64,000 nt of DNA from a virus. The stretch lies in the IMG/VR virus record IMGVR_UViG_3300027917_000038, positions 11,892 to 75,891 of that record. One strand, 5' to 3'. The notes under the pieces were generated by a model. The model saw only the letters and a program-made list of their open reading frames with translations, searched no databases and had not been told where the DNA came from. The translations under genes were made by a program, and so were the position numbers. Every line of letters begins with the position of its first letter. The stretch's first letter is position 1. Positions 39,746-56,696 of the stretch are shown piece by piece.

Positions 39746-39882
39746 GAGATTGGTTGTAGTTCGACAGCGACTGTTAAATAAGAGAGGATCGACAATATGA
39801 AATATGACAAATTGCCAACAATAAAAAGGAACAGTTGCCGAACAATGGAACAAAACGGGAGGTTCGACCCCTCCCAATCTCA
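39746..39882 (+). ncRNA. tRNA-like RNA (acceptor stem and T-arm) with long internal stem-loop; tmRNA-like architecture
   Basis: GAGATTG/CAATCTC acceptor, GGAGG-TTCGACC-CCTCC T-arm, internal GTTCG/CGAAC and GCGACTGTT/AACAGTTGC helices. Confidence 0.65.
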
Positions 39883-40021
39883 TCCTAAAGCAAAAGTGTA
39901 TAACTATGAAGTTTTACAGAATATTTTTTGACAAAATAATAGAACATTTCTCAAAATTCGAAACATTAACAGATTTTGAATTAAAAGAACTATTAAAACA
40001 AGCATTTGATGAAATGCAATC

Positions 40022-40279
40022 ATGATTGAAATATTGTCTTGGATTAGCACTTTGTTTTTCTTTATAGGTGCGTATATTTATTCTGGTAAGAAACAAAAAT
40101 ATCCAAGAACTAGAATGACAGGATTTATAATATATTGCGTTGGTGGAACAATTTATATTTACATAAATTTATTCATGCAGTTTAATTTAGCGTTTGCTTC
40201 TTGTCAAGTTGTATTTAATATACTTGACATACGAGCAATATATCATTGTTGGAAAGAAATTAAAGAACAAAAACAATAA
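40022..40279 (+). CDS. Small 3-TM membrane protein (SemiSWEET/PnuC-like half-transporter pattern)
   Basis: Three hydrophobic helices; ILSWIST...GF..Y..G...W pattern. Confidence 0.4.
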   Translation: MIEILSWISTLFFFIGAYIYSGKKQKYPRTRMTGFIIYCVGGTIYIYINLFMQFNLAFASCQVVFNILDIRAIYHCWKEIKEQKQ

Positions 40280-40808
40280 AATGTTAGTAATAGAAGTTAT
40301 TTTATGGATTGTTATTTTAATAGGATACGGAGCATGTTTATTTGGATTTTATGTAGCAATCTGGTCTTATAAACAAGGAAATGATGATTGGGTGTTACCA
40401 TTATTTCTTACAAGTCTTTTATTATTATGTGTTATATTAACACATATAAGACTTACAATAGACTTTGACCAATTATATAAAATATTATACACGGAGTTGT
40501 AAAAATGTTATCATATATGAATATGTTTGATGTTGAATCAACAGAAGAATATCATAGGTATCATACTAAATGGCATAAAAACTGGCGTGATTATCAAAGA
40601 GAAACAAAAGAAATTAACACTAAAATAGAGTGGGAAAAACGAATGGAATCCACTTACGATAATCTAAAAACATTTATTAATTCCTTAAATTTACGATTAT
40701 ACATTCGTATTAAACGCAAATTTTTTCATTACAAAGAATTCAAATACAAAATTTTTATTACAAGAAATAAGAAACTAATTAAATCAAAATTACATAAAAT
40801 AATAACAA

Positions 40809-40882
40809 GGGCTCTTAGTGTTACTGGACGAGCATACTCATCAGATGTATGAGAGGGGTTGGTTCGATTCCAACAGAGCCCA
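40809..40882 (+). tRNA. Cloverleaf tRNA-like gene, nominal anticodon GAT (Ile), with non-canonical anticodon loop
   Basis: GGGCTCT/AGAGCCC acceptor, GTGT/GCAT D-stem, CTCAT-CAGATGT-ATGAG anticodon arm (A33 instead of U33), GTTGG-TTCGATT-CCAAC T-arm. Confidence 0.7.
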
Positions 40883-41120
40883 TCCAAAGGTGTAAATTAT
40901 GAAAATTTTGGAACAAAATGAACAAAGCACATTAGAAGTGCTTCTTCGTTTCACAAAAGAGGAAATGAAACTATTCTTAAACACTGTAGTAGATTGTGCA
41001 AAACCTGCAAACTGTAGTTATGAAGATTACAAAGAAATAATAAAAACAAAATCTCCTTCAAGTGAATTCGAAGAAATATTACAAAAATTATACTCGTTAG
41101 TAGAATAAAGTGAAAAAATC

Positions 41121-41789
41121 ATGTCAAAAGTAATGACATTAGGAGATGGATTCTCCAAAAGAAAAGAGCTTCAGTCCGAGTTTATGACTTGGATTAATAG
41201 ATTGCGCTTAAGTGGTATGGAAACAACTACATACCGAGTCGAAGATATTAATGACAAGGAAGATAAAGCATTACCTGGCTCCCTTAAGAAGTTCACACGA
41301 ATTTACTCTGTTGAAGAGTGTCTTGAAAAATTAAAACAAATTTTAAAAGAGGATCGTGAACTTGCTCTAAGAATTTCTCTTACTAATCAACAAGCCAAAG
41401 CCACAATGATTGATCTTGAAGGCAAGGAAGTGGAATTAACAATTCCGGAATTAATTGTTCTTAAAAATGAGATCTCACCAAAATTGGAAGAGATTGAAAG
41501 AAACATCCCCACTCGTGCTAAAGGAGTAGAAATTCTGGAAGATGATGACGACCACATCAAATGGAGAGAAATACAAGTAGTCAAAGAAAAAGAAAGAGAA
41601 ATTACCGACAAAGGATTTCAACGAGACATTATAAAGATTAAGGGTTATAATATGAAAGAGTACATGGATTATGGATACACAGAAAGATCGTTATGTGATC
41701 GAACAGACGCAATAAGAGCATGGCAAACTCGTTTGAAAGAAGCAATAAATGAAGCTAATAAAACTCCACTCGTAAATCTCGGGGCATAA
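41121..41789 (+). CDS. DIP1984-like coiled-coil protein
   Basis: MTLGDGFSKRKELQ N-terminus, RISLTNQQ...LTIPELIVLK and C-terminal RLKEAINEANKT pattern. Confidence 0.55.
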   Translation: MSKVMTLGDGFSKRKELQSEFMTWINRLRLSGMETTTYRVEDINDKEDKALPGSLKKFTRIYSVEECLEKLKQILKEDRELALRISLTNQQAKATMIDLEGKEVELTIPELIVLKNEISPKLEEIERNIPTRAKGVEILEDDDDHIKWREIQVVKEKEREITDKGFQRDIIKIKGYNMKEYMDYGYTERSLCDRTDAIRAWQTRLKEAINEANKTPLVNLGA

Positions 41790-42012
41790 GATCAAAATGG
41801 ACGGAATTAGTAGTTGTAGAAACTACATAAGAAAAAGGACAAACAGAAAAGTGTCTATCCAGTCTGGAAACTGGTTCGTACAGTTGTAGAAAAAGATAAA
41901 ATATAATATATACATTAAAAATTAAATGTGTATAAATTAGCGACTTTGTTCGCATTAGGCTGGGCTCTACTAAGCCCACATAACCATGATTAGATTATGC
42001 CCCATTTTTTTT
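41781..42012 (+). ncRNA. Candidate multi-stem structured RNA in the 3' region of the DIP1984-like gene
   Basis: GGGGCATAA (41781-41789) pairs with TTATGCCCC (41995-42003), enclosing six hairpins; T8 tract follows. Confidence 0.6.
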
Positions 42013-42017
42013 ATTAA

Positions 42018-42136
42018 AGGCAGGCTGGTAAAAATCCCACTACGAAATTTTTATTGGAGAATCAACAATGAATTCTAAGACAAAATAAAAAAATTGGAGT
42101 TCGGGAAGGAGGTTCGATTCCTCCACTGCCTATCCA
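42018..42136 (+). ncRNA. tRNA-like RNA (acceptor stem and T-arm, no D-stem, long extended central hairpin)
   Basis: AGGCAG/CTGCCT acceptor, GGAGG-TTCGATT-CCTCC T-arm, TCCC/GGGA and AATTTTTATT/AATAAAAAAATT helices, ATCCA end. Confidence 0.6.
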
Positions 42137-42179
42137 TTGTATCTAATATTTTAGAACAACAACAAATTTAAAGAGAAAA

Positions 42180-42731
42180 ATGAGTAGAACAGGAGCAAAG
42201 GTATTTGCACTAGTTCTTCTTTTTGTAACTGTTGGAGACATAGTTGGTTGTGTTGTATGGAATGTTTGGAATTATAACACAAATATTTATTCATTTCAAA
42301 AGAAAATGGCTAATCTCGACAGAGCAACAACTACAAGCGATTTAAAAGAAGCTGGAGATTACTGTATGGAAGTATATGATTATATTAAAAAATACAAAGG
42401 TAATCCAGACTGGTGGCCCTGGAAAACAAAAAGAACGGACTGGGATGATATCAAATCAGATTTTAAATCAGTAATTGATGACGCTTACGAAGCGCATAAT
42501 CGCAGTAGTCCGGGAGACGATGCATATCAAGAAGCATTAAAAGTGTTTCGTGAGAAAATAGATGGAGTAGATGAAGACGACAAAGGATTATATGACCAAA
42601 TAGATGAAAACTTTGATCTTGAATTGTATAAAGAGCAATGGCCTATTTTATGGTTCTTTTGGCTAAGTATTATTATTCTTATAATTGTAACTTTAATCGC
42701 ATTAGTTATAGCATTTGATTCTTATTACTGA
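42180..42731 (+). CDS. Membrane protein with N- and C-terminal TM helices
   Basis: Hydrophobic termini around a soluble domain. Confidence 0.6.
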   Translation: MSRTGAKVFALVLLFVTVGDIVGCVVWNVWNYNTNIYSFQKKMANLDRATTTSDLKEAGDYCMEVYDYIKKYKGNPDWWPWKTKRTDWDDIKSDFKSVIDDAYEAHNRSSPGDDAYQEALKVFREKIDGVDEDDKGLYDQIDENFDLELYKEQWPILWFFWLSIIILIIVTLIALVIAFDSYY

Positions 42732-43181
42732 TTTGTTAATTTTAACCCTTTTTTTTTCTTTTATTTGTATCACGATTATTGGTAATTATTATGATAGATT
42801 CACAAACAATTTGGCAATCCAAACAGAATCATCCGGAATTGGTAGTTGAAGACATTAAAAAATTGTTTAATCTTTCCGACAAGGAATGTGAACAAATAAG
42901 ATTTATTCTTATGAATCGCGGCATTAATAAATGGTTGTATGCGAGACGATTGTTTATAAAACTAAAACATTCCGTTAAAAAAATAAGAAAGATAGCAATT
43001 TCTGATTATGGTCATAAACATCCTCTTGTTAAAGAGATTAAGAAAATACAAGAGAAAATGCAAAACATTGCTAAATTGCCCCGTTGGATAGAATGGGGAG
43101 ATCACGTTCATAAAAACATGAAACAAAATGAGAAAGACATAATTATAAAAGGTAAACATTGTTAAAATTAGAGGTAAAAAA

Positions 43182-44192
43182 ATGAGTCACGCAACTGTGT
43201 TGATAATAAGCAAGAAAAATGATGAAGACACAATCCAAAAAATGATGGAACCCTATTGGGAACTGGATTTAAGTCGTGAAGATCTTAAAGAAGATCCAAG
43301 AGCTGTTTTTGTTGAAAAATTTAAAGCAAGAGATCTTCAAACTAAATTTGAAAAATGGGTTAATAAAATGCTTTTACGGATTTCTAAAACTCAACTTCAA
43401 ATAAAAAACAAAGATTTTGAAGAGTTAAAACAAAGACCGTTCATAAAAGACATGAGTGACGAAGAAATAGTTAAAAAACTAGAAGAACAAATAGAAGAGG
43501 ACAAAAAAATATTAAAATCTTATAACACATCCATAGAATGGGTAGATGAATGGCACGGATATTATTTAAACAAAGAAGGCATAGCATACGGATATTATAT
43601 TAATCCTAATGATAAGTGGGATTGGTACCAAATCGGAGGACGATGGGCTGGAATGATTAAACTCAAAAAAGGAGCAGAAGGAGAAATTGGAGAAAAATCT
43701 TTTATGTTCAAAGGAAATCCTTATGAAGATGGTGGTGTTGATTCTGCTCAAGTTAAAAACATAGATGAAGAATGTTTAAAATCACTCATTACTTATGCTG
43801 TTCTTGATGAAGAAGGATGGCATGAAAAATCCAGAATGGGATGGTGGGGATGTTCTCAATACGACAAATACTGCTGTGTTGTAGAAGAAATTAACATTCA
43901 TGAAATACTACATCATTTTAAGCATGATTATTTTGGAATAAATCACACATGGAAAGGATATAGTAATGAATATGTTGAATTGTTCATCAAAACTTTACAC
44001 TCACATTATTATCGTGATGGAAAAGTTTATAAACTTAAGAATAATCTTGGACAAGGAAGAACTGAACTAACTGATGATTTAAAACGTGTTGAATTTTTTA
44101 GAAACAAACACTGGCAAGATTATTTTTACAACAGATTTATAAAAAACTTAGCTCCTGACATGTATTTAACAATTGTTGATTATCACATTTAA
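43182..44192 (+). CDS. Conserved viral hypothetical protein (NP..KWDWY.IGGRW type)
   Basis: MSHATVL start, NPNDKWDWYQIGGRW, MGWWG and VDYHI end, a pattern common in tailed viruses. Confidence 0.7.
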   Translation: MSHATVLIISKKNDEDTIQKMMEPYWELDLSREDLKEDPRAVFVEKFKARDLQTKFEKWVNKMLLRISKTQLQIKNKDFEELKQRPFIKDMSDEEIVKKLEEQIEEDKKILKSYNTSIEWVDEWHGYYLNKEGIAYGYYINPNDKWDWYQIGGRWAGMIKLKKGAEGEIGEKSFMFKGNPYEDGGVDSAQVKNIDEECLKSLITYAVLDEEGWHEKSRMGWWGCSQYDKYCCVVEEINIHEILHHFKHDYFGINHTWKGYSNEYVELFIKTLHSHYYRDGKVYKLKNNLGQGRTELTDDLKRVEFFRNKHWQDYFYNRFIKNLAPDMYLTIVDYHI

Positions 44193-45523
44193 ATAATAAG
44201 TGATTATTATGAAAAAACATGACAGATTATGGGAACTGCGTGTTGTTGATAGTGAAGGAATGTACACTGGAGAATTTATAGGAACCGATGTTGCTGTTGC
44301 AAACAGAGCAAATGATATAATAAAAAATGGACATGAAGCACAATTTAGTGAAATTAAAATAAACGAAAGAACAAACATTTTTTATTTAAGCGATAAATAC
44401 GACCAAGAATTATATTGGGCAGAAGCAAAACTTAACAACAAAAAAACAACAAGCGACAGAAAAATATACGCATTCATAAATTTAGACCAAGTTTCCACAT
44501 TTATTGAAGACATGAAACTCAAATCGGAAACTGTTAGAAAGTTGTCGCTACAAAAAAGTGCATTTGAATTATTAAAAAGCGGTTTGTATTAAATGGCTAG
44601 TAGAAAAGGAAACTCAAGAAGAGCACAACCTTATAAAGAGAGACTTAAATATAGACGCACTAATTTTAAAAACGTTAAAGGATGGAGAAAAACTGCGCAA
44701 CCAAAAGTAATAAATGGTAGACATCAAGCAGATCCTAAGAACGAAATTGAACCTAGACATGACGGAAAACCTTACGATAGATCAAATCCAAAATATTTAA
44801 AAAAGCCAGTGGTATAAATGATTGTATGGAAAATTATCTTATATTCTCTTCTTGGAACATTACAATTTCTTATGTCAGCAACTATATTTATAGTATCAAC
44901 ACATAAATATGGATTAATAGCTGGTATTATGATAACAATAGCATTTTCTATTTTTTTGTTTGTACTTGGATTATTAAAACTTATAATGTTAATAGAAACA
45001 AGTGATAAAAATGGATAAATACAAAAAAGGATTATTTGTTTTATTAAAGGATTATGGGTGTGAAGTAATGCAACACATGAAATGCTATCGAAAAACCCAT
45101 AAATATGATAACATTCAAATGGCAACAATATGTTACGAATATTACAAAATTATTTTAGAAATAATTCATTATGTAAGGAAGGAAAATGAAAAAAAAGATT
45201 AAAATAACAAAAAGTATGATACTAGGATTAATTCACAAATATAGAGACAAGATAAGAGATGGTCGATGTGGTGGTGTAGTAAGAAAGTCCACAGTTGACG
45301 CTTGTCTTAAAGCAGAAGGTTATACTAAAGATGATTGATGAAGAATTAAGGAAAAAATTACCAAATTGTCCACCTTGTCCTTATGATAATAAATACAATC
45401 CGGATAATTGGGATTGTTATAATTGTGGGTACATTGGTGTAGAAATGAGTTTTGATGAAGAACTCATGAAAAACATCCTTGAATTAAATAAGAACAGTAT
45501 ATTTGTTAAACCAAGTGAGTAAA

Positions 45524-46087
45524 ATGGGCTTAGATATGTATTTAGACGCACAAAGAGGATTTTATGATTCACAATGGAATAAAGAAGAAACAGAAGAATC
45601 CAAAGTGTGTAAAAAAATAAGGGAAATAATTCCAGAAATATTCAAAAGCGGTAATCTTAACTACATTAAAATAAAATTTGAAGTTGGATATTGGAGAAAG
45701 GCAAACGCAATTCATGCTTGGTTTGTTGATAATGTCCAAGAAGGTGTAGATGATTGTAGAAATTATCGCGTCAGTAGAAACAAATTAAAAGAACTCTTAG
45801 CAATCTGCAAAGAGGTTTTAAAAGAATCAACACTTGTTAAAGGAACAGTGAAGGCTGGATGGAAAGGCAAAGCAGGAGGTGGATTAGAACCTATACTCGA
45901 AGACGGAGAAAAAATTGTGGACTCCAGCGTTGCTGAAGAAATCCTACCAACTGCAGATGGATTCTTTTTTGGTAGCACAGATTACGATGAATTTTATATT
46001 AGTGATGTTAAAGCAACAATTAAAATAATTGAAAAGGCTTTAACATTACCAATAGAATGGACTTTTTATTATAACTCAAGTTGGTAA
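45524..46087 (+). CDS. Conserved viral hypothetical protein (MGLDMY...YWRKANAIH type)
   Basis: MGLDMYL, YWRKANAIHAWFV, GFFFGSTDYDE and YYNSSW; start moved to the internal ATG. Confidence 0.7.
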   Translation: MGLDMYLDAQRGFYDSQWNKEETEESKVCKKIREIIPEIFKSGNLNYIKIKFEVGYWRKANAIHAWFVDNVQEGVDDCRNYRVSRNKLKELLAICKEVLKESTLVKGTVKAGWKGKAGGGLEPILEDGEKIVDSSVAEEILPTADGFFFGSTDYDEFYISDVKATIKIIEKALTLPIEWTFYYNSSW

Positions 46088-46339
46088 TTAAAATGACTGA
46101 ATATTTAGCTTGTTATGAGTGTTGTGGTAACATAATTGAAGAAACAGAGATTATGTTTCCTTGTCTTAGGTTTAAGGGAAAAGATGTTGAATTCCCAGAT
46201 GATTGTCCAAAAAAGGCAAGAGGGGTAGACATAAAAGAAACCCCTAGATGGAAAAACATTTCAAAAGAAGCATTTAATATATATTGGTTTATGAATAAAC
46301 AATTTGGAACAAGAGTAAGATTTTTCGAGGAAGAAGAAA

Positions 46340-46597
46340 ATGGCAAGAGGAAAGGGATTTAGTAGTCATGGAAGTTTAACAAAAGCAGGAAGAGTAAGAT
46401 TTGAAGCAACCCCTGAAGTAAAAAGAACTGGTGTTAATTCAAGAAAAAAGAAAATACCAAGAGTAAGATACAGAGAACTTTACAACAAAAGAATTGTAAA
46501 AGAGAAATATGGAGGACAACCAAACAGCATTGGAGCAAATAAACAAAAAAGAGGAAACAAAAATGAGAGATCCAAAAAGAATAAAAAGAATTTGTAA
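46340..46597 (+). CDS. rps30e: Ribosomal protein eS30 (S30e) homologue
   Basis: SHGSLTKAGRVR..TP...RKKKIPRVRYRELYNKR matches the eS30 signature HGSL.KAGKVR.QTP...PR...R..Y..R. Confidence 0.88.
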   Translation: MARGKGFSSHGSLTKAGRVRFEATPEVKRTGVNSRKKKIPRVRYRELYNKRIVKEKYGGQPNSIGANKQKRGNKNERSKKNKKNL

Positions 46598-46805
46598 GTT
46601 ATTAGAAGAAAAGTGGTTAACAGTACCAGATCAAAGATTAGGTCAATTCTTACTTAATTATGTTTTTGGTAGAAATCCACATCATCCAAAATATGACAGT
46701 TATATATTTTTCCGTGAAGATGATATAACGGAGGAAATATTAGATGTATTGTTCGGAGAAGAATGGTATAAAGAAATTGAGAAAAGAAAGAACCCGACCA
46801 TTTAA
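46563..46805 (+). CDS. Conserved viral hypothetical protein (MRDPKRI type)
   Basis: MRDPKRIKRI...W...PDQRLGQ...EDD pattern; start moved to the internal ATG. Confidence 0.6.
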   Translation: MRDPKRIKRICKLLEEKWLTVPDQRLGQFLLNYVFGRNPHHPKYDSYIFFREDDITEEILDVLFGEEWYKEIEKRKNPTI

Positions 46806-48876
46806 ACCGACATTTAGAAAAAAATGGGTGCAAAAAAAATGGAAGAAGAATTACCGATGTTAGGGAATAACGAAGGACAATGTCCTAAGTGTGGAAGTAC
46901 TAATATTCATTACACAATTGAAGATGAAAATGGGGCTGTCGCAATTTTATGGGATCAAAAAGTTGGTAGTTATTACGCTAAATTGAGATGTAAAGATTGT
47001 GGAGCACCTTTTAAATATTTTTACAATTTAATATTTACATATTCAAAATACAATTACGAATAATAAAAAAGGTTTTGTAAATGGAAAAAAAGGAAAAAGA
47101 ACCAATAATGAAAATGAGTATGAAAAAATTGTCAGCATTACTAACAAAAATGTTAGCTGAGCAACAAATGCCTGAATTTGCCAAAGATCCGAACGTGTTT
47201 TTAAACACACTTGGTTCAAAATTAATGTCAGCAATAGTGGAATTTTGGGAATATGGAAGCAATGAAATTTTTCTTATCTTAATTCCTAAATATATTGAAC
47301 AACTTAAAAAATACAGAGACGCATTGTACGAAGAAAGAGAGGAACAAATAAAAATAATAGAAGAATTAGCAAAATTGTCAGATATATCACCAATGGTTTT
47401 CATAGAACTAATATCATTCTTCTTATTAATACAAGACAACAGAGACAGAATGGGAGTTGTAAACATTAGAGATTTCAACGATAGGAAAGAACCTGGTGAA
47501 TACCTAACAGATAGATTTATTTGTATGTTTAGAATTGCTGAAGAATACATTAAAGTCTATGATGGAAACCAAGACAATATGACAACCTTTTTAGATATTG
47601 CATGGAATGAAATTAGAGAGGAATTTGATGACTTATGAGAGTAGGTTGTTTTTTAGAAATAAACAAGACAAAAAAGAAGGCATATTTCTTTGGATTTGGA
47701 GAATATCTAGGAATGGAAATTCCAGATGAAAACGCTGGTGGTTTATGTCAAATAGGTAGATTATTAGGCAAACCAAATCCAAAAATTCTGCTTGATTCCG
47801 GCAAGATAATATGGGGTGGTGAATGCTGGTGGTCAGAAGAAGCAGAATGTATTGCGGAAATTGCAGAACTTGAAAATGCTGACTTTAATATTATTAATGT
47901 TGATATTGACGACATAAGAAAAAAATGGAATGAAGAATAAATGTCCGAAGAATACATAAAAATAGTGAGTCGCACACATCAGATCTTTCGAAGTCGGAGC
48001 ATCAAATTCATCACAAACGGCGAAGTAGTCGACACCATTCCTGTTCCAGATGAGCAAATTGTATGTGACGCATGCAATGCAATGATTCTGGATCAGGAAA
48101 TCAAGCTTTTGTGTTATATTGATGATGGAATTGAATATGTGTGGGGAGCAATTTGTGATAAATGTCACAAAAAATATCACTCAAAATTAAAAGTGGTGCA
48201 TGATGAATAAAGGGTATATTATAATACACAAAAGTCCTCTTAAAGATGACATGGAAAAAATGAAAAGTAGAGATCCAGACCTTTACAAAATGATGGCTGA
48301 TACATTTAAATGGAACTGTAATTCTTATCCTCAATCTTATGATATTCTTGTAAGAAGGTTTTCACGTAAACTTCAAAAAGAATTAGAATCAATGTTATAT
48401 CAAGTTGATTGTCCAGTAGTACCTCGGTATTTAAGAAGACATCCATTTTATAAATATGTTGGTTCCGAAGATACTGGGCATGTTGATTTTATTAATGAAA
48501 GTGTTGGAAGATTAATAGGTAAATTAGAAAAGAATGGATTTAAAACAATAGTGGTTGAAGATGACTTATTCGACAAAATCCAAGCAAGAATTAAGAAACA
48601 TCGCAAAGAAGATGTACAAAGGAGAAATATTAACAACACTCCAACTCAATGAAAGTGAAATTGATACTGTTTTTGGAATGATGAAATTATTTCACTGGGA
48701 CAAAACAAGAGAAATAATGGAACACGGTCTTGGTTGTATCTATGGACACATGAAAGATGCCGCTCCAATGCATTGTAATGGGCTTCCTATGTTTTTTGCT
48801 TGGCAATTTCTTGATAAACCAGACACAAAAAAACTTATTAAAATTTATAACAAATTATTAAAAAAGATGCGTAAAT

Positions 48877-49215
48877 ATGACAAAGGAAAAAGATGTGGAG
48901 AAGTTTTTGGAGCAGCTGAGTGAAGAGGAACTTGAACAGATAGACAAAGGAGAATATGTAGGTAACGTATGCGATGATTGCATAGACGAAAAGCGTAAAA
49001 AAGTAAAACATGATTACAAAGCTGGAGATTATGTTAAATGTGAATTTGAATCCTCTGATGATAGAAATGAATACATGTGGGTTTTAATTGAGGAAATAGA
49101 TGAAACAACCATCACTGGAAGATTAGACAATGATCCAGTCCTCGTACATCAAATAAAGTGCGGAGACACAGTAAAAATAAATAAGGATAAAATAGTACAA
49201 GTAATATATATGTAA
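48877..49215 (+). CDS. DUF2314/YegJ-like protein
   Basis: EYMWV...GRLDNDP...IKCGDTV motif. Confidence 0.65.
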   Translation: MTKEKDVEKFLEQLSEEELEQIDKGEYVGNVCDDCIDEKRKKVKHDYKAGDYVKCEFESSDDRNEYMWVLIEEIDETTITGRLDNDPVLVHQIKCGDTVKINKDKIVQVIYM

Positions 49216-49217
49216 GA

Positions 49218-49445
49218 GTTCACCATCCAGTCATTTTGGGGAACATACATCATGAGTTTCATTTTATAAGTGAAGAACAAAACACTTTTGCTAAACAAGA
49301 GATAGATGGGTTTGGGTTGCTACATACAAAGCCGTCTTCACTTATTATACATTTCCAGCAATCCAAACCATTATCTCAAACGGTATAATGTTACACGTTT
49401 CGTGTGCAAATGTAAGCGTTTAAAACAACGCAAGAGGTAAACCTA
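49218..49445 (+). ncRNA. Candidate pseudoknotted leader RNA upstream of the MoxR/vWA genes
   Basis: Crossed helices 49266-49276/49335-49345 and 49299-49321/49357-49377, plus small hairpins. Confidence 0.5.
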
Positions 49446-49446
49446 A

Positions 49447-50310
49447 ATGAAAAATGTAAAAAATCAAGTAAGATATATTCAACAATATAACGAATTCAAT
49501 CATTTAGTAAAATGTATTGAAAGTGCTCCAACTGGAGAAACATTTGGCATCCTATTAATAGGGCCTCCGGGCACTGGTAAAACTCTCTGTGCAATGGATT
49601 TAGCACGACATTATAATTCTAATTATATAGTTGTAGATGGAAGTCCACAAACAGACCGAAGAGATTTGGAAGGATGCTGGGAAATAGTTAAAGGAAATAC
49701 AGTTTTTAATAAAGGGCCTCTTTACCAAGTAATAGAACAGGCAAACAATGAAGGAATAGCTTTCTTAGTTTTTAATGAACCAAACGCGGTAAATCCATCG
49801 GAACAAATTAGTTTTAATGCACTCATGACAGAGAATCATATTAACTTGCTTAGCAACGCTGGTAAAAGAATTGAAATTGAACCACATGCTAAACTTATTG
49901 TAATAGGAACTATCAATTTAAATGTTCTTGGAATAAATGATCTACAAGAAGCATTTGATGATAGGTTCCTTGTTAATTGGGAATTTGAATACCCAGCAAA
50001 AAAGAAAGAAGCAGAAATAATAAAAAAAATGGCTGGTTGTTCAAAATCTCTTGCTGAATTAATTTCTGAATTGGCATACCAATTGAGAGAAGCAGCAATG
50101 AAAGATTTTTCACTTAAAAAACCCTTTTCAACAAGACATGGTGTAAATTTTGCCAAAATGATTTGGGCAATGAAAAGGAAATACATAAGAGAAAACATCC
50201 GAACAATGATAGTTAGCAAAATAGCAAAAGAGAAAAGAGAAAAGGAATTCATTTCCCAAATTTTAGATGGATTGGACTTTAAGAAACGATTGTGGGATAT
50301 ATTAAAATGA
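49447..50310 (+). CDS. MoxR/CobS-like AAA+ ATPase
   Basis: Walker A GPPGTGKT, GPL, Walker B variant LVFNE, TIN sensor I, AFDDRF Arg finger and STR sensor II. Confidence 0.9.
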   Translation: MKNVKNQVRYIQQYNEFNHLVKCIESAPTGETFGILLIGPPGTGKTLCAMDLARHYNSNYIVVDGSPQTDRRDLEGCWEIVKGNTVFNKGPLYQVIEQANNEGIAFLVFNEPNAVNPSEQISFNALMTENHINLLSNAGKRIEIEPHAKLIVIGTINLNVLGINDLQEAFDDRFLVNWEFEYPAKKKEAEIIKKMAGCSKSLAELISELAYQLREAAMKDFSLKKPFSTRHGVNFAKMIWAMKRKYIRENIRTMIVSKIAKEKREKEFISQILDGLDFKKRLWDILK

Positions 50311-52067
50311 GTGATCCAAAGTTATTAAACAAAACAACAAAAAAAGCGCTGAATGATGTAGCAAAAAGAATTTCTGGGAATAAAGAAATAACATTACGCT
50401 TTAGTGGAACTTATGATGTTACGGATGGTCAGAAAATTACCATACGAAGAGACGCAGAAAAAAACCTTCGACTAAGCCAAGGACTTGTGGCTCATGAAGC
50501 AGGTCATATTGGCTACGGGTCATTAGGAAACATTATTAAAGAACTAGTATTTCATTTAACAAACAAATATAAATTGGATGAAGAAACTGCTCGTTCTTTA
50601 ATGAACATGGTTGAAGACGCAAGAGTAAATAAAATAAACAATAGAGTTTTCCCTGGTTTTTATCGTTCTCTTAGAGAATGGTTTTATATGAATGTGTTGC
50701 CAGAAATAAGACAACAATCTTTCCATCCATTGCTTCGTGATATAGGACTATATTTTGAGGATTTTGATTGGACATTTAATAATGCGGAACATAAATTAAA
50801 TGACGAACAATTGGATTTAATTGAAACAGCAAAACTAATTTCTGATAAGTTTATTTCACCAGCATCATCTGTTTTTATTTGTAAATTACTTGCTGAATTG
50901 TTTAAGAAAAAACAAGAAGAAGAGGGTGGGAAAAAACAACGACCTTCTCCTTCTCCATCAGCAGACGCACGCACAGATCCATCAGCATCACAAAAAATCT
51001 ATGACCCAAATTTTAAGAAATCACAGGAATATAAAGATGACTACAAATTCATGCAAGACATGAACAAAATGTTGGATGAAGAATTCAAAAAATTGATAGA
51101 ACAATTGTTAAAATTAGAGGCTTGTGAAAACGAAGACAATAAAGAATGTGAAGGGTCTATACAACGCATGAGAGACTTTCTTGAAGAACAAGAAAGAAAA
51201 TTAAGCAAGTACATACAAGAAGTTATGGTAACTAGAAGACCTTATAGAAAAATAGAAAGACGATATTATTGTAGGAAGGCTAGAGACTTAGAAAAATATC
51301 CACCAACAGCTCTTGAAATAATGAGTGAATATAAAAGGGAAATAGAAACATTAAAAAGATACTTAAATTTATTGGAAAAGAAGTCAGTTAAAAAACAAAA
51401 ATTTGGTAGGTTAAATAACGACTGGATGAAAGCAATTGTAGGAGATTATGAAAAATGTTTCTCAAGAAAGAGGTACGAAAGATTACAAAGATTAACTCTC
51501 TTAATAGATATTTCTGGAAGTATGACTGGCCCAATGGATGAAGGCGATTATGAAAGATGTCACAAGGAATCAAGAAGACATCTTTCTAAATTATCAGTAG
51601 CAAAAATTTGTTCTGTTATTTTTGGTGAAATATTTAAAGACTTTTGTGATTTAAGAATTGTTCTTTTTACTGGTGTAAAAGATGTTGTTCATCATGTTAT
51701 CAAGGATTTTAAAGACACGGTTCATCCACGCGATTATGATGAATTTGGATATGATCAAATGCAGGGAGAAAATTTAGATGGATTGTCTTTAATATACGAG
51801 GCAGAAAAAATAGGGAGCGATGGAATAATTATTATTGTTTCAGATGGATACCCAGCAGGAGATTATTATAGTCTTGGAGACGCTATTACAGATGTTAATA
51901 GAGCAAGAAAACTGTGTAAATTTATTTTTGCCTTTAGTATTAAGGCACGAGGAGATTATTTAACAGATATGTATGAGAAACATTTTATTATTGTTAAAGA
52001 TAAAGAGGAATTTAGAGAAAAGCTTCTTAAATTTGGAAGAATTTTAATGGAGCAATATTTAAGATGA
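50292..52067 (+). CDS. vWA-domain protein with N-terminal HExxH (CobT-like partner of MoxR)
   Basis: HEAGH, EDARVN, MIDAS DISGS and VSDGYP. Confidence 0.85.
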   Translation: MGYIKMSDPKLLNKTTKKALNDVAKRISGNKEITLRFSGTYDVTDGQKITIRRDAEKNLRLSQGLVAHEAGHIGYGSLGNIIKELVFHLTNKYKLDEETARSLMNMVEDARVNKINNRVFPGFYRSLREWFYMNVLPEIRQQSFHPLLRDIGLYFEDFDWTFNNAEHKLNDEQLDLIETAKLISDKFISPASSVFICKLLAELFKKKQEEEGGKKQRPSPSPSADARTDPSASQKIYDPNFKKSQEYKDDYKFMQDMNKMLDEEFKKLIEQLLKLEACENEDNKECEGSIQRMRDFLEEQERKLSKYIQEVMVTRRPYRKIERRYYCRKARDLEKYPPTALEIMSEYKREIETLKRYLNLLEKKSVKKQKFGRLNNDWMKAIVGDYEKCFSRKRYERLQRLTLLIDISGSMTGPMDEGDYERCHKESRRHLSKLSVAKICSVIFGEIFKDFCDLRIVLFTGVKDVVHHVIKDFKDTVHPRDYDEFGYDQMQGENLDGLSLIYEAEKIGSDGIIIIVSDGYPAGDYYSLGDAITDVNRARKLCKFIFAFSIKARGDYLTDMYEKHFIIVKDKEEFREKLLKFGRILMEQYLR

Positions 52068-53678
52068 AATTCATTCATAAAGTATTTCTTACAGCAAGAT
52101 CTAAAGAAGATGAAGAATGTATGGGTTGGAATGATCCAGACCCATCCTCAAAAGGAGACTGGGAAATTTGTATTTTTTTAGACAAATTTTATTTTAGGAA
52201 AAATATTAATCATATTAAATGCGCAAAAGAAATACAAAGAATATTTCTACTTGAGTTGGTTTGTTCTCTTAGTAGAGTAGAAAAATATTGGAAAGAAGAA
52301 AGGTGTAATGAATGCCCACCATGGAAAATAACAAAAAAAATTATGCAAAATATTACAATAAAATAAATAATGATTCGGAATTAATAAACATTTTGGAATT
52401 TATAACAAAGATGTTAGACAATAAGGATTTGTCTAAAGATCAATGGATGACAATAGTTGAATACATCCATTATAGAGCACTTAAAAATGAAAGTAGGAAA
52501 TAATAATGACAGAAGAAGAGAAAAAAGACGAGTATGAAAAATACGCAAGTCAATTAGACTCAGAAAAATGTTGCGGAAGATATTTACATTTTGGTCATTT
52601 CATACAAGATTTTGAAAACGACAAAAATACGGCGCTGTCACAATTTCACTTTGAACTTTATAAATTTTATGCCACATTATTATGTAGCTATGCGGATTTT
52701 GAAGCATTTGACAAATTAAAGAAATTTTTAGTGGAAGCAATTGACTATGTTAAAAACAGGATAAATAAACTAGAAAGTAAACAATTACAAGGAATAGCAG
52801 ATGACATTTTAAAATTCGCAAGAAAAAATTTTGATGAAATTAAGAAGAGATGGGGAAAGAAAAACCATGAATATTTCACATAGATTTAGATCTTTTTTAA
52901 GAAGCAAATACATTTGCCCAATGTGTGGTAACAAAGATTTTCCCGACTGGAAGGATAAAGATGGAGTCGAGTATTGTAGATGTGGTTATTGGAGAAAACT
53001 TAAAAAATCTCCAAAATAAACATAAAAGGTGTTACATTTTGGAAATAGCTAAGGAGTTCGAATTGTATAGGAAGTTTGAAGTTGTATTGTTTCGGTATTT
53101 CAAAATAGCTGAATTTGTAGAGAATTCAATTAAGTTTTCATTTAAAACAAAAGATGATATTTCTACAATATTAGATCCAAAAGGTTATGATAACGCTAAA
53201 AACAGAACACTAAAAGAAATTAACGACCAAAATATTTACATACCTTTTAATCCTTTTTACTTAGACAAAGACGACAAAGAATTTTTTACTATTATTTTTC
53301 CCAAAAAGTTTTGGGAAATAAAAGACACGGAACGAGAGAAAAGAGAAGCATTAAAAGAAATTTGGAGTCGTATACATGAAATAAAATGGTGGCTCGGAGT
53401 AACAAAAGACACCAGATTTTGTGGAATAAGAAAAGAAAGTAGATTAACAACAGTTTTAGAAAACTACTTGAAAAGTGGAATAAAGGAATTTAGGTATGAT
53501 TTCGAGCATTCTGTTTTTAGAAACATTGATAAAGAGACAATTAGAAAATTTTTAAGGGTGATGAAAAATCGGAAAAGAAGAGAAGGAATCATCTCGATGT
53601 CTCAAAAAAGGCAAAGAACTACATACAGAAGCAGAAAAAACGGCAAAAGAGTTTCTTGAATGGAAACGAATTCAAGCA

Positions 53679-54686
53679 ATGTTAAACGCCCATCAAGATG
53701 AAATAATAAACGAAAGATTAAGATCAATGGAAGAAACAATTAAGTGTAAACTTATACCTGTTGAAGAAATTAATGGTAGTACCGATGAACACCCATTAAC
53801 ATGGAGTCTTATACCTGAGTGGAAACATCAAGATCCGCTTACAGAATCAATAATGGGATTAAAATTAATGGAGGTAGAAAAAATGAAAAATATATGTCAA
53901 TATTGTAAAAACAATAAAAATTGTAGTATAAAAAATGAAGGAATAAAAACATGTTCCGATTTTAATAGACAACAGGATTGTTGTATATGCGGTGCAATTA
54001 AAAGATCAAGTGAATTAATAATAAAAAGAACCGAAGAGGACTATCTATACGTTTGTAAGGAAGATGATTGTGCAAAAGAGTTCAAAAAACAATATACATA
54101 TTGTTATGAATGCGAGCTTTATTTTCCCAAAAGTGAATTAAAGGTATGGAATGGAAAACTATTATGCGAAAGATGCACAAAATTTAGAGTAAAAGAATGT
54201 AAAAATTGTGGTGGAATCTTTGACAAAAGTGAAACAGTTAATTATGGCAATTATTATTATTGTCATTCTTGTTTTGACAACAACCAAGGAACATGTGCCG
54301 AATGTGGAATGGAAGAAGTGACATTTGAACTAACAATGTTAGAATGTGGAGAATTAATTTGTAGAGATTGCGAGAAAAAAAGAAGCCAATTAAAAATTGA
54401 AATTGAAAATGCATGGGAAAGAGTGGAGTATTATGAACATGCTGAACCATTTCCAGTTGAAGTAATAGAAAAAATGTTAAAAGATGTAAAAAAGAAGAAA
54501 TTTGTTTTTCCATGCACATTCGATGATCAAGGAGAATTTTGTCCATTAACTTATGATGGTAAGAGAAAGGGAAGTTGTACATCATGCGACAGACCAGAAA
54601 TTTACAAACTATTAAGAGAAAAGGACAAAGAATTTTACCCTAAAATGACTAAAATTTTAGAAGACGCATTGGAAGAGATGATATAA
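53679..54686 (+). CDS. Multi-zinc-finger Cys-rich protein
   Basis: About ten CxxC-type pairs in LIM-like tandem spacing. Confidence 0.65.
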   Translation: MLNAHQDEIINERLRSMEETIKCKLIPVEEINGSTDEHPLTWSLIPEWKHQDPLTESIMGLKLMEVEKMKNICQYCKNNKNCSIKNEGIKTCSDFNRQQDCCICGAIKRSSELIIKRTEEDYLYVCKEDDCAKEFKKQYTYCYECELYFPKSELKVWNGKLLCERCTKFRVKECKNCGGIFDKSETVNYGNYYYCHSCFDNNQGTCAECGMEEVTFELTMLECGELICRDCEKKRSQLKIEIENAWERVEYYEHAEPFPVEVIEKMLKDVKKKKFVFPCTFDDQGEFCPLTYDGKRKGSCTSCDRPEIYKLLREKDKEFYPKMTKILEDALEEMI

Positions 54687-55798
54687 TAAAAATGTACTTT
54701 AGGACAAAAAATTTTGGATTGCTTTTACAATTTAATGAAATTGGAAGAAACTTTACATTTTGGATAAAAATAGGAAAATATAGTATAATGACAACTTTAT
54801 TTTTGAGGTAATTAAAATGCCGTTAATAAAATGTCCTATATGTGGAAACAAATCATTTATGCAAAAGAAAGGAAAAAACATATATTTTGGTTTTTGTAGA
54901 AAATGTACTTATCCAAATCATTCTGGAGTACAAATAATTAATTCTACGGGTATAGCAATGGAGTATGAAATTCTAATGGAGTTGTTTGATAAAGATGCCG
55001 TTTACTAATGAAAGATATTTTTACCAGCAATGGATGAACATGATCAATTCAATAGATTGCTTAACAAAAGCAGTTAATAAATTGGTGGAAAAAATTGGGG
55101 AAAGGGAAGAAGAAAAAGAAATTCGGAAGAACGAGAAGCAAGAAAGCGTTCAACAGAAGAAGAAAAAAGACTAAGAAATACAAATCTTCTGGTTGGAAGC
55201 TAAAATACCCTGAAATTTTTGAGGAAATAAGTTATTATCCTTATATTGTTAGGAGGGATAGGGAGGAGAAAAACAAATGAAAGCAAGTTGGTTATTTTTT
55301 ATAGTGTTAATAATAACAAGACAAGTTCTTATGTTTATGTTGGGTTTTGGAGTAATTACATGGGAAGAGTTTTGTTTTTATATATTATCTGATACAATAT
55401 ATTTAGGACTAATTATGATATTTTTAGCAATAAAGGAGGGACAAGAATGATTCTACATAATCTTAAATTAAGAATAAAGTACACTTTCTTATGTTATATG
55501 TGTGACAGATTTGTGCTTTTTAGAAAACATGAAAAGTGTTCTGCCCCTTGGATACCAAAATTTAAAGTATGTAAGAGGTGTCTTGAAGATGATGGATGAA
55601 GAAGGAAAAGCAATAGTAACATACGACCATTTTTATGAATATTGTATGAAATTTAAAGATACAATTTACGTTAGAGAACAAATTGATGGAAGGTGGAAAT
55701 CAGTTGCTCTTGGAGAACTCTCACTAGATCTACAATTAAAATGGATAAGATGTTGGTGGGATAGAGGACATCTTCCATATAGAATACTAGAATAATAT

Positions 55799-55876
55799 GC
55801 CCGTGCACAGTAGCGCTATTGAACAAATGGTAATGAATTAATGGGAAATTCGCAGGTGCAAATCCTGCCACGGGCT
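55799..55876 (+). ncRNA. tRNA-like RNA with perfect acceptor stem and T-arm and an atypical core
   Basis: GCCCGTG/CACGGGC acceptor, GCAGG-TGCAAAT-CCTGC T-arm, internal hairpins CAGTA-GCGC-TATTG and GAATT-AATGGGA-AATTC. Confidence 0.6.
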
Positions 55877-56644
55877 TTAAAATTTTGGAGGCAAAAAAAT
55901 GAAGGCATATAAAATAGCAGCATTTTTCCTAACAGCTCTTATAATCATAGGAATAATCATAGGATTTGTGATTTTGTTTACATTTCTATTCTATTTATTA
56001 TTCTTAGGGTTTAGAAGTTTGTTAAAACAATATGGAGTAAGAAATGAATCAGCAACAATAGTTTCATTTATTTGTACTATTTTCATAATGTTTTTTTCAA
56101 TAAGGGGAATTGCAGAAGGAATTAAAAAGAGGGAATAAAATGTTTAACGAAAAAGAAATAGAAATGGATTTGTTACTCTTTACTCTTTTCCCTAAAGAAC
56201 AATTGGATCATTTGTTTGATTTTATACCAATGCTTCATAGAGATGTGATTAATGAAAAAGTTCCAAAAGAAATAAGAGAACTTTTCCATATTACAGATAT
56301 AGAAAAATGGGCTTATGATTCTGTAAATGAGTTAGATGAGTGGTTAAAAACACTCGACGATGAATACATTGAAAATCTGACTCTTGACGAAATTGTTAAA
56401 AAGGAAAATCTTTTACAATTCCTTGATTACAGAATTTTTATAATCAAACAATCTGGATTGTATGATAATGAGGAAATTTGTGACATTTTAAAAAATGGTT
56501 TAACAGATTGTCTAAAAAAGATGGAACAGACTTTAAAAATCAATTTCGCACCGACACCAGATAAATCTGATTAAATCTGATTTGTTGAAAAATGCGATTT
56601 ATGTTTAATTTTATCTTTTTAAAATTCTAAAAAACATTGATGCT

Positions 56645-56696
56645 TTTTAAATTCGTCGCACCCCCCCAGTATTATGGGAATGCGACAAATTTGAAA
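56645..56696. repeat. 52-bp site with 16-bp inverted arms around a 20-bp C7-containing spacer; second copy at 31428-31479
   Basis: TTTTAAATTCGTCGCA-CCCCCCCAGTATTATGGGAA-TGCGACAAATTTGAAA; arms 14/16 complementary. Confidence 0.85.

What the first reader, a model, noticed from the sequence alone, without database searches (positions are those of the whole stretch)
39746..55876. Family of tRNA-mimic elements sharing an acceptor-stem/T-arm module with divergent middles
Seen: four plus-strand elements (39746-39882, 40809-40882, 42018-42132, 55799-55876). Each has a 6-7-bp acceptor stem stacked on a 5-bp T-stem with a 7-nt loop, but none is a canonical tRNA: two have long hairpin inserts, one has A33, and one has a rearranged core. 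Three end in the same A-TCC trailer instead of A-CCA. All lie at gene boundaries. Established: the acceptor/T-arm half is the part recognised by RNase P, RNase Z, CCA-adding enzyme and the elongation factor; tmRNA and some bacterial Y RNAs mimic it. Inference: a viral tRNA-mimicry system acting as processing punctuation for early polycistronic RNA, as decoys for tRNA-targeting defences, or as ribosome-interacting RNAs, possibly working with the viral eS30 in the same region.
Basis: partly seen in the sequence, partly recalled or inferred. Interest (0 to 1): 0.82.

Follow-up and report, generated by a model that had tools for sequence, protein, structure and literature searches.

The report
tRNA-shaped RNA genes, archaeal virus
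A marine-sediment archaeal virus carries one odd tRNA gene and three tRNA look-alikes that keep only the part gripped by tRNA-trimming enzymes, so they most likely mark cutting sites in early viral RNA; no RNA data test this yet.

Summary
All four elements exist at the stated coordinates. A module scan finds 4 acceptor-stem plus T-arm modules in the 75.9-kb virus, against about 0.3 expected by chance. All four are on the gene strand and between genes.

They are not one family:
- E2 (40809-40882) is a true cloverleaf tRNA-Ile(GAU) by ARAGORN and by Rfam (41.9 bits). Only its anticodon loop is odd (A33, G37).
- E1 (137 nt) and E3 (115 nt) are paralogues. They share the same T-stem, the ATCC trailer and a 13-nt motif, GAGRATCRACAAT, found nowhere else in five related genomes. 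Their acceptor stems differ at 5 of 7 pairs yet stay paired. Neither is a tRNA, an intron-containing tRNA or a tmRNA by any test run.
- E4 is a sub-threshold tRNA-like fold.

Related viruses carry their own versions: a 129-nt look-alike, a tRNA with a 6-nt anticodon loop, and a 35-nt minihelix.

Best reading (about 50%): these are tRNA-derived RNAs kept for their upper half, working like t-elements, the RNase P and tRNase Z cutting signals known from Haloferax and plant mitochondria. Nothing links them to eS30, to defence decoys or to integration.

No RNA data exist and close relatives are few. This scan has noted similar look-alikes in other archaeal viruses.

The parts
39746..39882 (+). E1, a 137-nt tRNA-derived RNA. 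Acceptor stem 39746-39752 / 39875-39881 (7 of 7 Watson-Crick pairs). T-arm 39858-39874 (GGAGG TTCGACC CCTCC). Discriminator A at 39882. Between them lies a long interrupted helix (GTTCG-ACA-GCGACTGTT / AACAGTTGC-CGAAC) that encloses a 54-nt loop.
   Evidence: Module scan. Fold -33.7 kcal/mol, z -2.9. No tRNA hit in Rfam at E<=10. None of 1616 single deletions gives an ARAGORN tRNA.
39784..39796 (+). Motif GAGGATCGACAAT inside the E1 loop, followed by ATG and GACAAA. It starts 38 nt from the 5' end of E1.
   Evidence: An exact match to GAGRATCRACAAT occurs only in E1 and E3 across five related genomes, both strands.
40809..40882 (+). E2, a cloverleaf tRNA-Ile(GAU) gene with anticodon loop CAGAUGU (A33 and G37 in place of U33 and A37). 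T-arm 40858-40874.
   Evidence: ARAGORN. Rfam RF00005 41.9 bits, E 2.9e-8, alignment shown. Its 3' half was not found in any archaeal genome of 185,579 species.
42018..42132 (+). E3, a 115-nt paralogue of E1. Acceptor 42018-42024 / 42125-42131 (6 pairs plus a G-A mismatch; A1:U72). An 11-bp A/U-rich hairpin, a single-stranded motif, a second 9-bp hairpin, then T-arm 42108-42124 (GGAGG TTCGATT CCTCC). Discriminator A.
   Evidence: Module scan. Fold z -2.7. Rfam gives only 8-13-bit tmRNA-clan hits on the T-arm. Deletion test gives only marginal AT-rich calls.
42057..42069 (+). Motif GAGAATCAACAAT in E3, single-stranded between its two hairpins. It starts 39 nt from the 5' end of E3.
55799..55876 (+). 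E4, a 78-nt tRNA-like element. Acceptor 7 of 7 pairs. T-arm 55852-55868 (GCAGG TGCAAAT CCTGC). Two small hairpins replace the D and anticodon arms (one has the 7-nt loop AAUGGGA, again with A at the 33-like position). There is no variable loop, and the trailer is TTTA.
   Evidence: Rfam tRNA 19.5 bits or 12.4 bits, below the cut-off of 29. Not called by ARAGORN. Fold z -2.1.
39883..39885 (+). TCC trailer after discriminator A. The same three bases follow E2 (40883-40885) and E3 (42133-42135).
   Evidence: One search lists ATCCTA, ATCCAA and ATCCAT. The tRNAs of relative G003 have other trailers.

Best explanation
The region holds a small island of virus-encoded, tRNA-derived RNA genes in the early (plus-strand) gene block of an uncultured archaeal tailed virus from marine sediment.

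E2 is a tRNA-Ile(GAU)-shaped gene whose anticodon loop has lost U33 and A37. E1 and E3 are paralogues, and E4 is a separate element. These three have kept only the coaxial acceptor-stem/T-arm half of a tRNA. The D and anticodon regions are replaced by other hairpins, and in E1 and E3 also by a conserved single-stranded motif.

Inferred mechanism: the retained half is the part recognised by RNase P, tRNase Z and the CCA-adding enzyme. When the early polycistronic RNA is made, the host enzymes would cut at the 5' end and after the discriminator of each element. That would free the upstream mRNA, leave the downstream mRNA with a short leader of 16-47 nt carrying its Shine-Dalgarno sequence, and release a small, probably CCA-tailed RNA. 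This is how t-elements work in Haloferax and in plant mitochondria.

Shown here: the anatomy, its statistical reality, the E1/E3 paralogy with compensated stem changes, and the failure of the tRNA, intron and tmRNA tests.

Inferred only: transcription, cleavage, CCA addition, and any further role of the released RNAs or of the conserved motif.
For: 1. There are four modules against about 0.3 expected. All are on the coding strand and in intergenic positions.
2. The upper half is intact: 12 of 12 stem pairs in E1, E2 and E4, and 11 of 12 in E3. The elements are G+C-rich in a 31% G+C genome.
3. The lower half is not a tRNA in E1, E3 and E4.
4. E1 and E3 share an identical T-stem, the ATCC trailer and a motif at the same offset that is unique in five genomes. 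Their acceptor stems differ at 5 of 7 pairs and still pair, and the roughly 31 nt after the acceptor are unalignable. This points to selection on the shape of the stems.
5. Relatives with an early region show the same theme with other sequences:
- G003 has a tRNA-Ala followed by a tRNA with a 6-nt anticodon loop, downstream of the same 146-aa gene as E1.
- G001 has a 129-nt acceptor/T-arm element with two long arms, fold z -4.5.
- The distant relative G005 has a 35-nt minihelix.
Against: - No RNA evidence of any kind is available.
- E1-E4 have no sequence or positional homologues in G001 or G003, so no orthologous covariation could be measured.
- A syntenic 70-nt element in G001 resembles E1 at both ends but has a broken T-stem. 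That looks like decay.
- T8 tracts lie 3-4 nt upstream of E1 and E3. They may terminate archaeal transcription, in which case the elements would need their own promoters and would not punctuate a polycistron.
- The t-element model does not explain the conserved GAGRATCRACAAT motif or the shared TCC trailer.
Confidence: 0.5

Rival explanations
1. They are decaying relics of a viral tRNA gene cluster. E2 is a tRNA with a crippled anticodon loop, and E1, E3 and E4 are pseudogenes disrupted by insertions. None has a present function.
For: Relative G003 has ordinary tRNAs at the syntenic place. E1-E4 are not conserved in G001 or G003. The element in G001 syntenic to E1 has a broken T-stem. E2 lacks U33.
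Against: Stems are perfect (47 of 48 pairs) and G+C-rich in a 31% G+C genome. E1 and E3 have diverged beyond alignment in their 5' third, yet both keep full pairing through 5 compensated acceptor pairs and share an exact 13-nt motif. Neutral decay would not spare exactly the upper half in four separate elements.
Confidence: 0.2
2. E1 and E3 (and perhaps E2 and E4) are working effector RNAs, not mere cutting marks. On this reading the tRNA frame gives stability, a CCA tail or access to tRNA-binding proteins, while the exposed motif (GGAG/GAGG, then 8-9 nt, then AUG) or the altered anticodon loops act on a host target. Possible targets are the small ribosomal subunit, a tRNA-directed defence nuclease or a synthetase.
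For: The motif is conserved where its surroundings are not, and it is predicted single-stranded in both folds. E2 and the second tRNA of G003 both have rewired anticodon loops. Phage tRNAs with anticodon-loop changes are proposed to resist host anticodon nucleases (PMC10264068).
Against: Only two copies of the motif exist, both in one genome. The short ORFs that follow the AUG are not conserved (44 against 6 codons, with GACAAA in different frames; read). G3:U70 is absent and there is no significant tmRNA-model match. No partner gene was found. A33 would be expected to impair decoding, not to preserve it.
Confidence: 0.17
3. E1 and E3 are genuine decoding tRNAs interrupted by archaeal introns, possibly at non-canonical sites or more than one per gene. 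The host endonuclease would splice them.
For: A distant relative, G005, has a tRNA-Met(CAT) with a 94-nt intron at 37/38. The archaeal virus HFTV1 has a tRNA with a putative short intron (bioRxiv 10.64898/2026.09.13.751334). By eye, E1 contains a weak anticodon-arm-like hairpin (loop AUGACAA), and E3 one with loop CUAAGAC followed by 16 extra nt.
Against: ARAGORN with introns up to 200 nt finds nothing. None of 1616 single deletions of E1 gives a tRNA, and E3 gives only 7 marginal AT-rich calls with shifting anticodons. No bulge-helix-bulge candidate is compatible with the acceptor stem. Two-intron models were not tested.
Confidence: 0.08
4. They are attachment sites (attP) that copy the 3' halves of host tRNA genes, for integration of the virus.
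For: Many archaeal viruses integrate into tRNA genes, and the conserved part of these elements is the 3' half.
Against: No tyrosine integrase is found in G000, or in the complete relatives G001 and G003. G001 has direct terminal repeats. Each element also carries the matching 5' acceptor strand. The 3' half of E2 occurs in no archaeal genome searched.
Confidence: 0.03

Closest known systems
t-elements: tRNA-like processing signals of Haloferax volcanii (upstream of 5S rRNA) and of plant mitochondrial mRNAs
   Same: They keep a tRNA-like acceptor/T-arm shape without decoding capacity and lie at transcript boundaries. They serve as substrates for RNase P and tRNase Z (PMC4326828; PMC1920247). 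In plants they are CCA-tailed but not charged.
   Different: The present elements are viral. E1 and E3 are larger (115-137 nt) and carry a conserved internal sequence motif and a shared trailer. Cleavage was not shown here.
Virus-encoded tRNAs with altered anticodon loops (phage tRNAs proposed to resist anticodon nucleases, PMC10264068)
   Same: E2 is a well-folded viral tRNA whose differences from the consensus are concentrated in the anticodon loop.
   Different: E2 changes U33, which is nearly invariant and needed for the U-turn of the loop (my own knowledge). No host tRNA or host nuclease is known here for comparison.
tRNA-like domain of tmRNA (SsrA)
   Same: E1 has an acceptor stem, a stemless stretch containing UUCGAC, a long helix enclosing an A-rich loop with an AUG, and then a T-arm.
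   Different: There is no significant match to the tmRNA models (best 12.9 bits against cut-offs of 47-84), and ARAGORN finds no tmRNA. E1 has G3-C70, not G3:U70. The internal ORF is not conserved in E3. The host is archaeal, and to my knowledge archaea lack trans-translation.
Intron-containing archaeal and archaeal-virus tRNAs
   Same: Long inserts sit inside a tRNA frame. A distant relative has a canonical 94-nt intron.
   Different: No bulge-helix-bulge motif is present, and no excision restores a tRNA.
Bacteriophage T4 stable RNAs C and D (species 1 and 2), encoded in its tRNA gene cluster (recalled from memory; no paper found)
   Same: These are small non-tRNA stable RNAs encoded among viral tRNA genes, with tRNA-like 3' parts.
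   Different: They belong to a bacterial phage and show no sequence relation. Their function is also unknown. This comparison is a lead only.

Membership tests
tRNA (Rfam RF00005) | Covariance-model score at or above the gathering cut-off of 29 bits | tested here: met
   Met for E2 only: 41.9 bits, E 2.9e-8, and ARAGORN tRNA-Ile(GAU).
tRNA (Rfam RF00005) | The same score criterion applied to E1, E3 and E4 | tested here: not met
   E4 scores 19.5 or 12.4 bits. E1 and E3 have no tRNA hit at E<=10 even with lax filters.
tRNA (decoding-competent) | A 7-nt anticodon loop with U33 and a purine at 37 suited to the anticodon | tested here: not met
   The E2 loop is C-A-GAU-G-U, so it has A33 and G37. 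E1 and E3 have no accepted anticodon arm.
Intron-containing archaeal tRNA | A bulge-helix-bulge at the exon-intron junctions, and a tRNA restored after excision | tested here: not met
   ARAGORN -i200 finds none. The exhaustive single-deletion test is negative for E1, E4 and the G001 element, and marginal for E3. The BHB scan gives only candidates that clash with the acceptor stem. Models with several introns were not tested.
tmRNA | A match to the tmRNA covariance models or ARAGORN tmRNA, and G3:U70 alanine identity | tested here: not met
   The best match is 12.9 bits against cut-offs of 47-84. E1 has no match. ARAGORN -m finds nothing. E1 and E3 have G3-C70.
t-elements (tRNA-like processing signals) | A stacked acceptor stem and T-arm retained without a functional anticodon arm | tested here: met
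   Searches show the stems. Searches show the lack of tRNA character in E1 and E3. One search shows it for E4.
t-elements (tRNA-like processing signals) | A position at the ends of mRNAs, between genes of one transcription direction | tested here: met
   The ORF map gives gaps to the next start codon of 24, 16, 47 and 22 nt. The transcripts themselves are unknown.
t-elements (tRNA-like processing signals) | Cleavage by RNase P and tRNase Z, and CCA addition to the released RNA | not testable with these tools
   This needs RNA end mapping or enzyme assays. None could be run here.
Bacterial Y RNA / YrlA | A match to the Rfam Y RNA or YrlA models | tested here: not met
   No such hit at E<=10 on any element.
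attP site of a tRNA-integrating virus | An integrase gene, and identity to the 3' half of a host tRNA | tested here: not met
   PF00589 is absent from G000, G001 and G003. The 3' half of E2 is absent from archaeal genomes.

The most novel reading that the evidence does not exclude
E1 and E3 are a new kind of virus-encoded regulatory RNA. A tRNA acceptor/T-arm frame would be processed, CCA-tailed and stabilised by host tRNA enzymes. It would display a conserved single-stranded Shine-Dalgarno-like-plus-AUG motif (GAGRATCRACAAT-(AT)G) to the archaeal translation machinery or to another host factor. The variable acceptor stems would set partner specificity (E3 has the A1:U72 pair typical of archaeal initiator tRNA). 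That would make it a functional analogue of tmRNA or Y-RNA-type tRNA mimics in a domain where none is known.
Probability: 0.1. Interest if true: 0.8.

Novelty: new variant of a known kind. Interest (0 to 1): 0.48.

Why it matters
Viral tRNA genes are usually counted as codon-usage helpers. Here a virus of uncultured sediment archaea keeps tRNA shapes that cannot decode, and its relatives do the same with unrelated sequences. If these elements are cut by RNase P and tRNase Z, they would be the first viral counterpart of archaeal and organellar t-elements that I could find in the papers searched. They would also show how early polycistronic RNAs are cut up in archaeal viruses.

There is a practical lesson for annotation. 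Standard whole-genome scans missed even the true tRNA (E2) and see none of the look-alikes, so such elements are probably under-reported.

Tried and rejected
- RNA evidence: no RNA holder was listed. The three DNA runs held contigs identical in the elements, so they gave no variation to test.
- Closer relatives:
  - The 222-aa neighbour gene found nothing in IMG/VR.
  - Scans with MCP and TerL profiles found only G001-G005.
  - The metagenome scan with the 146-aa neighbour returned only G001 and G003 again.
  - The genome-contig scan found nothing.
  - The large protein database holds a 64%-identical neighbour protein on a 9.5-kb contig (P0005).
  - GenBank phages hold no relative by MCP protein or by DNA.
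- The pattern of the E1/E3 T-arm plus ATCC in IMG/VR gave 5 unrelated high-G+C tRNAs.
- blastn and nhmmer of E1-E4 against the relatives gave only chance-level words.
- The earlier 'guide RNA' idea rests on a 12-nt identity between E3 and genome position 43369. That match has E = 1.7, which is chance level.
- I first took the TGCAAAT T-loop of E4 as a rare family mark. It is common in IMG/VR phage tRNAs and tmRNAs, so it is not diagnostic, and homology between E4 and the G001 element stays unproven.
- The site in G001 syntenic to E4 holds no element.
- A relaxed motif scan for further elements gave only noise.
- A literature search for the T4 species 1 and 2 RNAs found nothing usable. PMC2327364 is not held.

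Full report
**Context**

The window is bases 11892-75891 of a 75.9-kb IMG/VR virus record. The record has 31% G+C, and CheckV estimates it 77% complete.

It is a tailed virus. It encodes a T4-type large terminase and a Mu-type portal on the minus strand. A plus-strand early block follows from about 32.7 kb. That block encodes a MoxR-type AAA ATPase with a weak VWA neighbour, RNase H, two proteins with TFIIB zinc ribbons, and a ribosomal protein eS30 homologue. The TFIIB and eS30 genes point to an archaeal host. DNA runs holding the sequence are marine-sediment metagenomes. GenBank phages contain no relative.

ARAGORN finds only E2 (40809-40882, tRNA-Ile GAU).

I wrote a scan that asks only for three things: a 5-bp T-stem with at least 3 G-C pairs, a 7-nt loop, and an abutting 7-nt strand that pairs with a heptamer up to 260 nt upstream. 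Mononucleotide shuffles gave 0-1 hits. Sixty first-order Markov genomes gave a mean of 0.3 and a maximum of 2.

Stems are 12 of 12 paired in E1, E2 and E4, and 11 of 12 in E3. G+C is 38-50%. Fold z-scores are -2.9, -3.3, -2.7 and -2.1. The ATCC string after the acceptor stem of E1-E3 is confirmed. All four sit between plus-strand ORFs.

**E2 is a tRNA; the others are not**

The whole-window Rfam scans returned nothing for E2. On a 111-nt stretch, where the filters are lax, RF00005 scores E2 at 41.9 bits (cut-off 29, E 2.9e-8). The cloverleaf is clean and the only deviations are in the anticodon loop, C-A-GAU-G-U.

- E4 reaches 19.5 or 12.4 bits.
- E1 and E3 have no tRNA-model hit at E<=10. E3's T-arm gives 8-13-bit hits to tmRNA-clan models whose cut-offs are 47-84.
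- ARAGORN's tmRNA search is empty.

**They are not ordinary intron-containing tRNAs**

- ARAGORN with introns up to 200 nt finds nothing new.
- I removed every possible single segment from E1, E3, E4 and the G001 element that leaves 68-100 nt, and ran ARAGORN on all variants. E1, E4 and the G001 element gave no tRNA call. E3 gave 7 marginal calls with four different AT-rich anticodons.
- A scan for bulge-helix-bulge geometry gave only candidates that use acceptor-stem bases.

Models with two introns remain untested. By eye there are weak anticodon-arm-like hairpins in E1 (loop AUGACAA) and E3 (loop CUAAGAC plus 16 nt). I therefore keep this rival at 8%.

**E1 and E3 are paralogues**

- Both have the T-stem GGAGG/CCTCC, a TTCGAyy loop, discriminator A and the TCC trailer.
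- Both contain GAGRATCRACAAT, starting 38 and 39 nt from the 5' end. This pattern matches exactly nowhere else on either strand of five related genomes.
- Downstream they also share GACAAA, an A-rich run and GGA..GTT..C.G.AA.
- The roughly 31 nt after the acceptor strand do not align.
- The acceptor stems differ at 5 of 7 positions on both strands (GAGATTG/CAATCTC against AGGCAGG/ACTGCCT) yet remain paired.

Divergence this deep with intact stems argues for selection on the stems. The exact motif, predicted single-stranded in both folds, argues for selection on that sequence too.

The motif reads as GGAG or GAGG, then 8-9 nt, then AUG. The ORFs that follow (44 and 6 codons) are not conserved, so I treat it as an RNA-level signal of unknown role.

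**Relatives**

TerL and MCP searches found G001 (99 kb, terminal repeats), G002, G003 (99.5 kb), G004, and the distant G005. TerL identity is 61-71% for G001-G004 and 35% for G005. G002 and G004 are fragments without the early block.

No sequence homologue of E1-E4 exists in the relatives, but the theme recurs:

- G003 has, downstream of the same 146-aa gene that precedes E1, a canonical tRNA-Ala (63.7 bits, with G3:U70). It is followed 8 nt later by a tRNA-shaped gene with a 6-nt anticodon loop (50.2 bits). Its upstream context, T9 then AATTAA, matches that of E3, T8 then ATTAA.
- G001 has a 129-nt element with a 7-bp acceptor stem, a perfect T-arm (GTCGG TGCAAAT CCGAC) and two long arms in between, z -4.5.
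- G001 also has a 70-nt stem-closed intergenic element at the place syntenic to E1. It resembles E1 at both ends (TGGTT..TAGTTCG and ACCCCTCC) but has a broken T-stem.
- G005 has a tRNA-Met with a canonical 94-nt intron and a 35-nt acceptor/T-arm minihelix.

So every genome of this group that holds the relevant region has tRNA-shaped genes, and several of these cannot decode.

**Mechanism**

The part that is kept is the substrate determinant for RNase P, tRNase Z and the CCA-adding enzyme (established knowledge).

- In Haloferax, tRNA-like t-elements are cut by both enzymes in vivo and have been used to release flanked RNAs (PMC4326828).
- In plant mitochondria, t-elements define mRNA ends (PMC1920247). 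[quoted passage not shown]

Cuts at the borders of E1-E4 would give downstream mRNAs leaders of 24, 16, 47 and 22 nt. Those after E2 and E4 carry AGGTG and GGAGG before the start codon. I therefore favour a t-element-like role, with the released RNAs possibly having a further function.

Weak points: there is no RNA evidence, there are T8 tracts just upstream of E1 and E3, and the motif and trailer are unexplained.

**Other ideas tested**

- Integration sites: no integrase in G000, G001 or G003, and E2's 3' half is absent from archaeal genomes.
- eS30 partnership: the gene is real, but nothing ties it to the elements.
- Defence decoy: no supporting gene was found. The analogy with nuclease-resistant phage tRNAs (PMC10264068) applies at most to E2.

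**Earlier notes of this scan**

First-reader notes on this genome describe the same elements. Follow-up reports on other genomes describe anticodon-less tRNA look-alikes in methanogen and marine archaeal viruses, and also name t-elements as the closest known thing. One of them, a 129-nt element before a clamp-loader gene, may be the G001 element I found independently.

These notes are unchecked AI notes. I verified the three t-element papers myself. The class has therefore been seen before by this scan on other DNA, but I found no published description for archaeal viruses in the searches I ran.

**Verdict**

The elements are a new variant of a known kind: t-element-like, tRNA-derived RNAs. 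The E1/E3 pair, with its conserved motif, is the most interesting part. Interest is moderate because function rests on analogy and comparative depth is thin.

Noticed in passing
window 41781-42003: A 220-nt non-coding stretch between the stop of gene 41121-41789 and E3. It is closed by a 9-bp stem (GGGGCAUAA/UUAUGCCCC), holds about six internal hairpins, and is followed by A plus U8. The 366-nt stretch including E3 folds with z -4.5. No Rfam match. It may be another RNA gene of the same island.
   Followed up: partly
L022 (G003) 16630-16700 = G003:56630-56700: A tRNA-shaped gene scoring 50.2 bits to RF00005 with a 6-nt anticodon loop (GUGAGA). ARAGORN cannot assign an anticodon. It lies 8 nt after a normal tRNA-Ala.
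   Followed up: partly
G005:76539-76706 and about 56630-56665 (L167, L166): A distant relative (47% G+C) has a tRNA-Met(CAT) with a 94-nt intron at 37/38 and an unusual U1:A72 pair. It also has a 35-nt minihelix made only of an acceptor stem and a T-arm.
   Followed up: partly
window 40809-40882: Technical point: the Rfam gathering-threshold scan of the whole window and the genome search tRNA scan both missed E2, which scores 41.9 bits when a short stretch is searched. Speed filters hide tRNAs in this AT-rich genome.
   Followed up: yes
L104:1480-1560(-) and L171, L172, L173, L175: A 70-nt anticodon-less tRNA-like element in five near-identical 51% G+C viral contigs. It shares 24 nt (AAATTC plus the whole T-arm plus C) and a TTTA..AAAATT trailer with E4, and GATCGACAA with the E1 motif. 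The acceptor stems differ but pair. The two viruses share no proteins. This could be chance, convergence or a mobile small RNA gene.
   Followed up: partly
window 46340-46597: A virus-encoded eS30 homologue (PF04758; 31.8-32.7 bits, above the cut-off of 27) sits among small early ORFs.
   Followed up: partly
IMG/VR-wide (loci L038-L154): A T-loop reading TGCAAAT (G at position 55 instead of the usual U) is frequent in viral tRNAs and tmRNA 3' ends. Most of the 117 pattern hits listed had complementary T-stems.
   Followed up: no
window 39883-39910 and 40883-40901: The trailers of E1 and E2 are alike beyond TCC, up to the next start codon (TCC-(T)AAAG..GTGTA.AA.TATGAA). This suggests a duplicated unit of element plus gene start, or a shared leader signal.
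   Followed up: no
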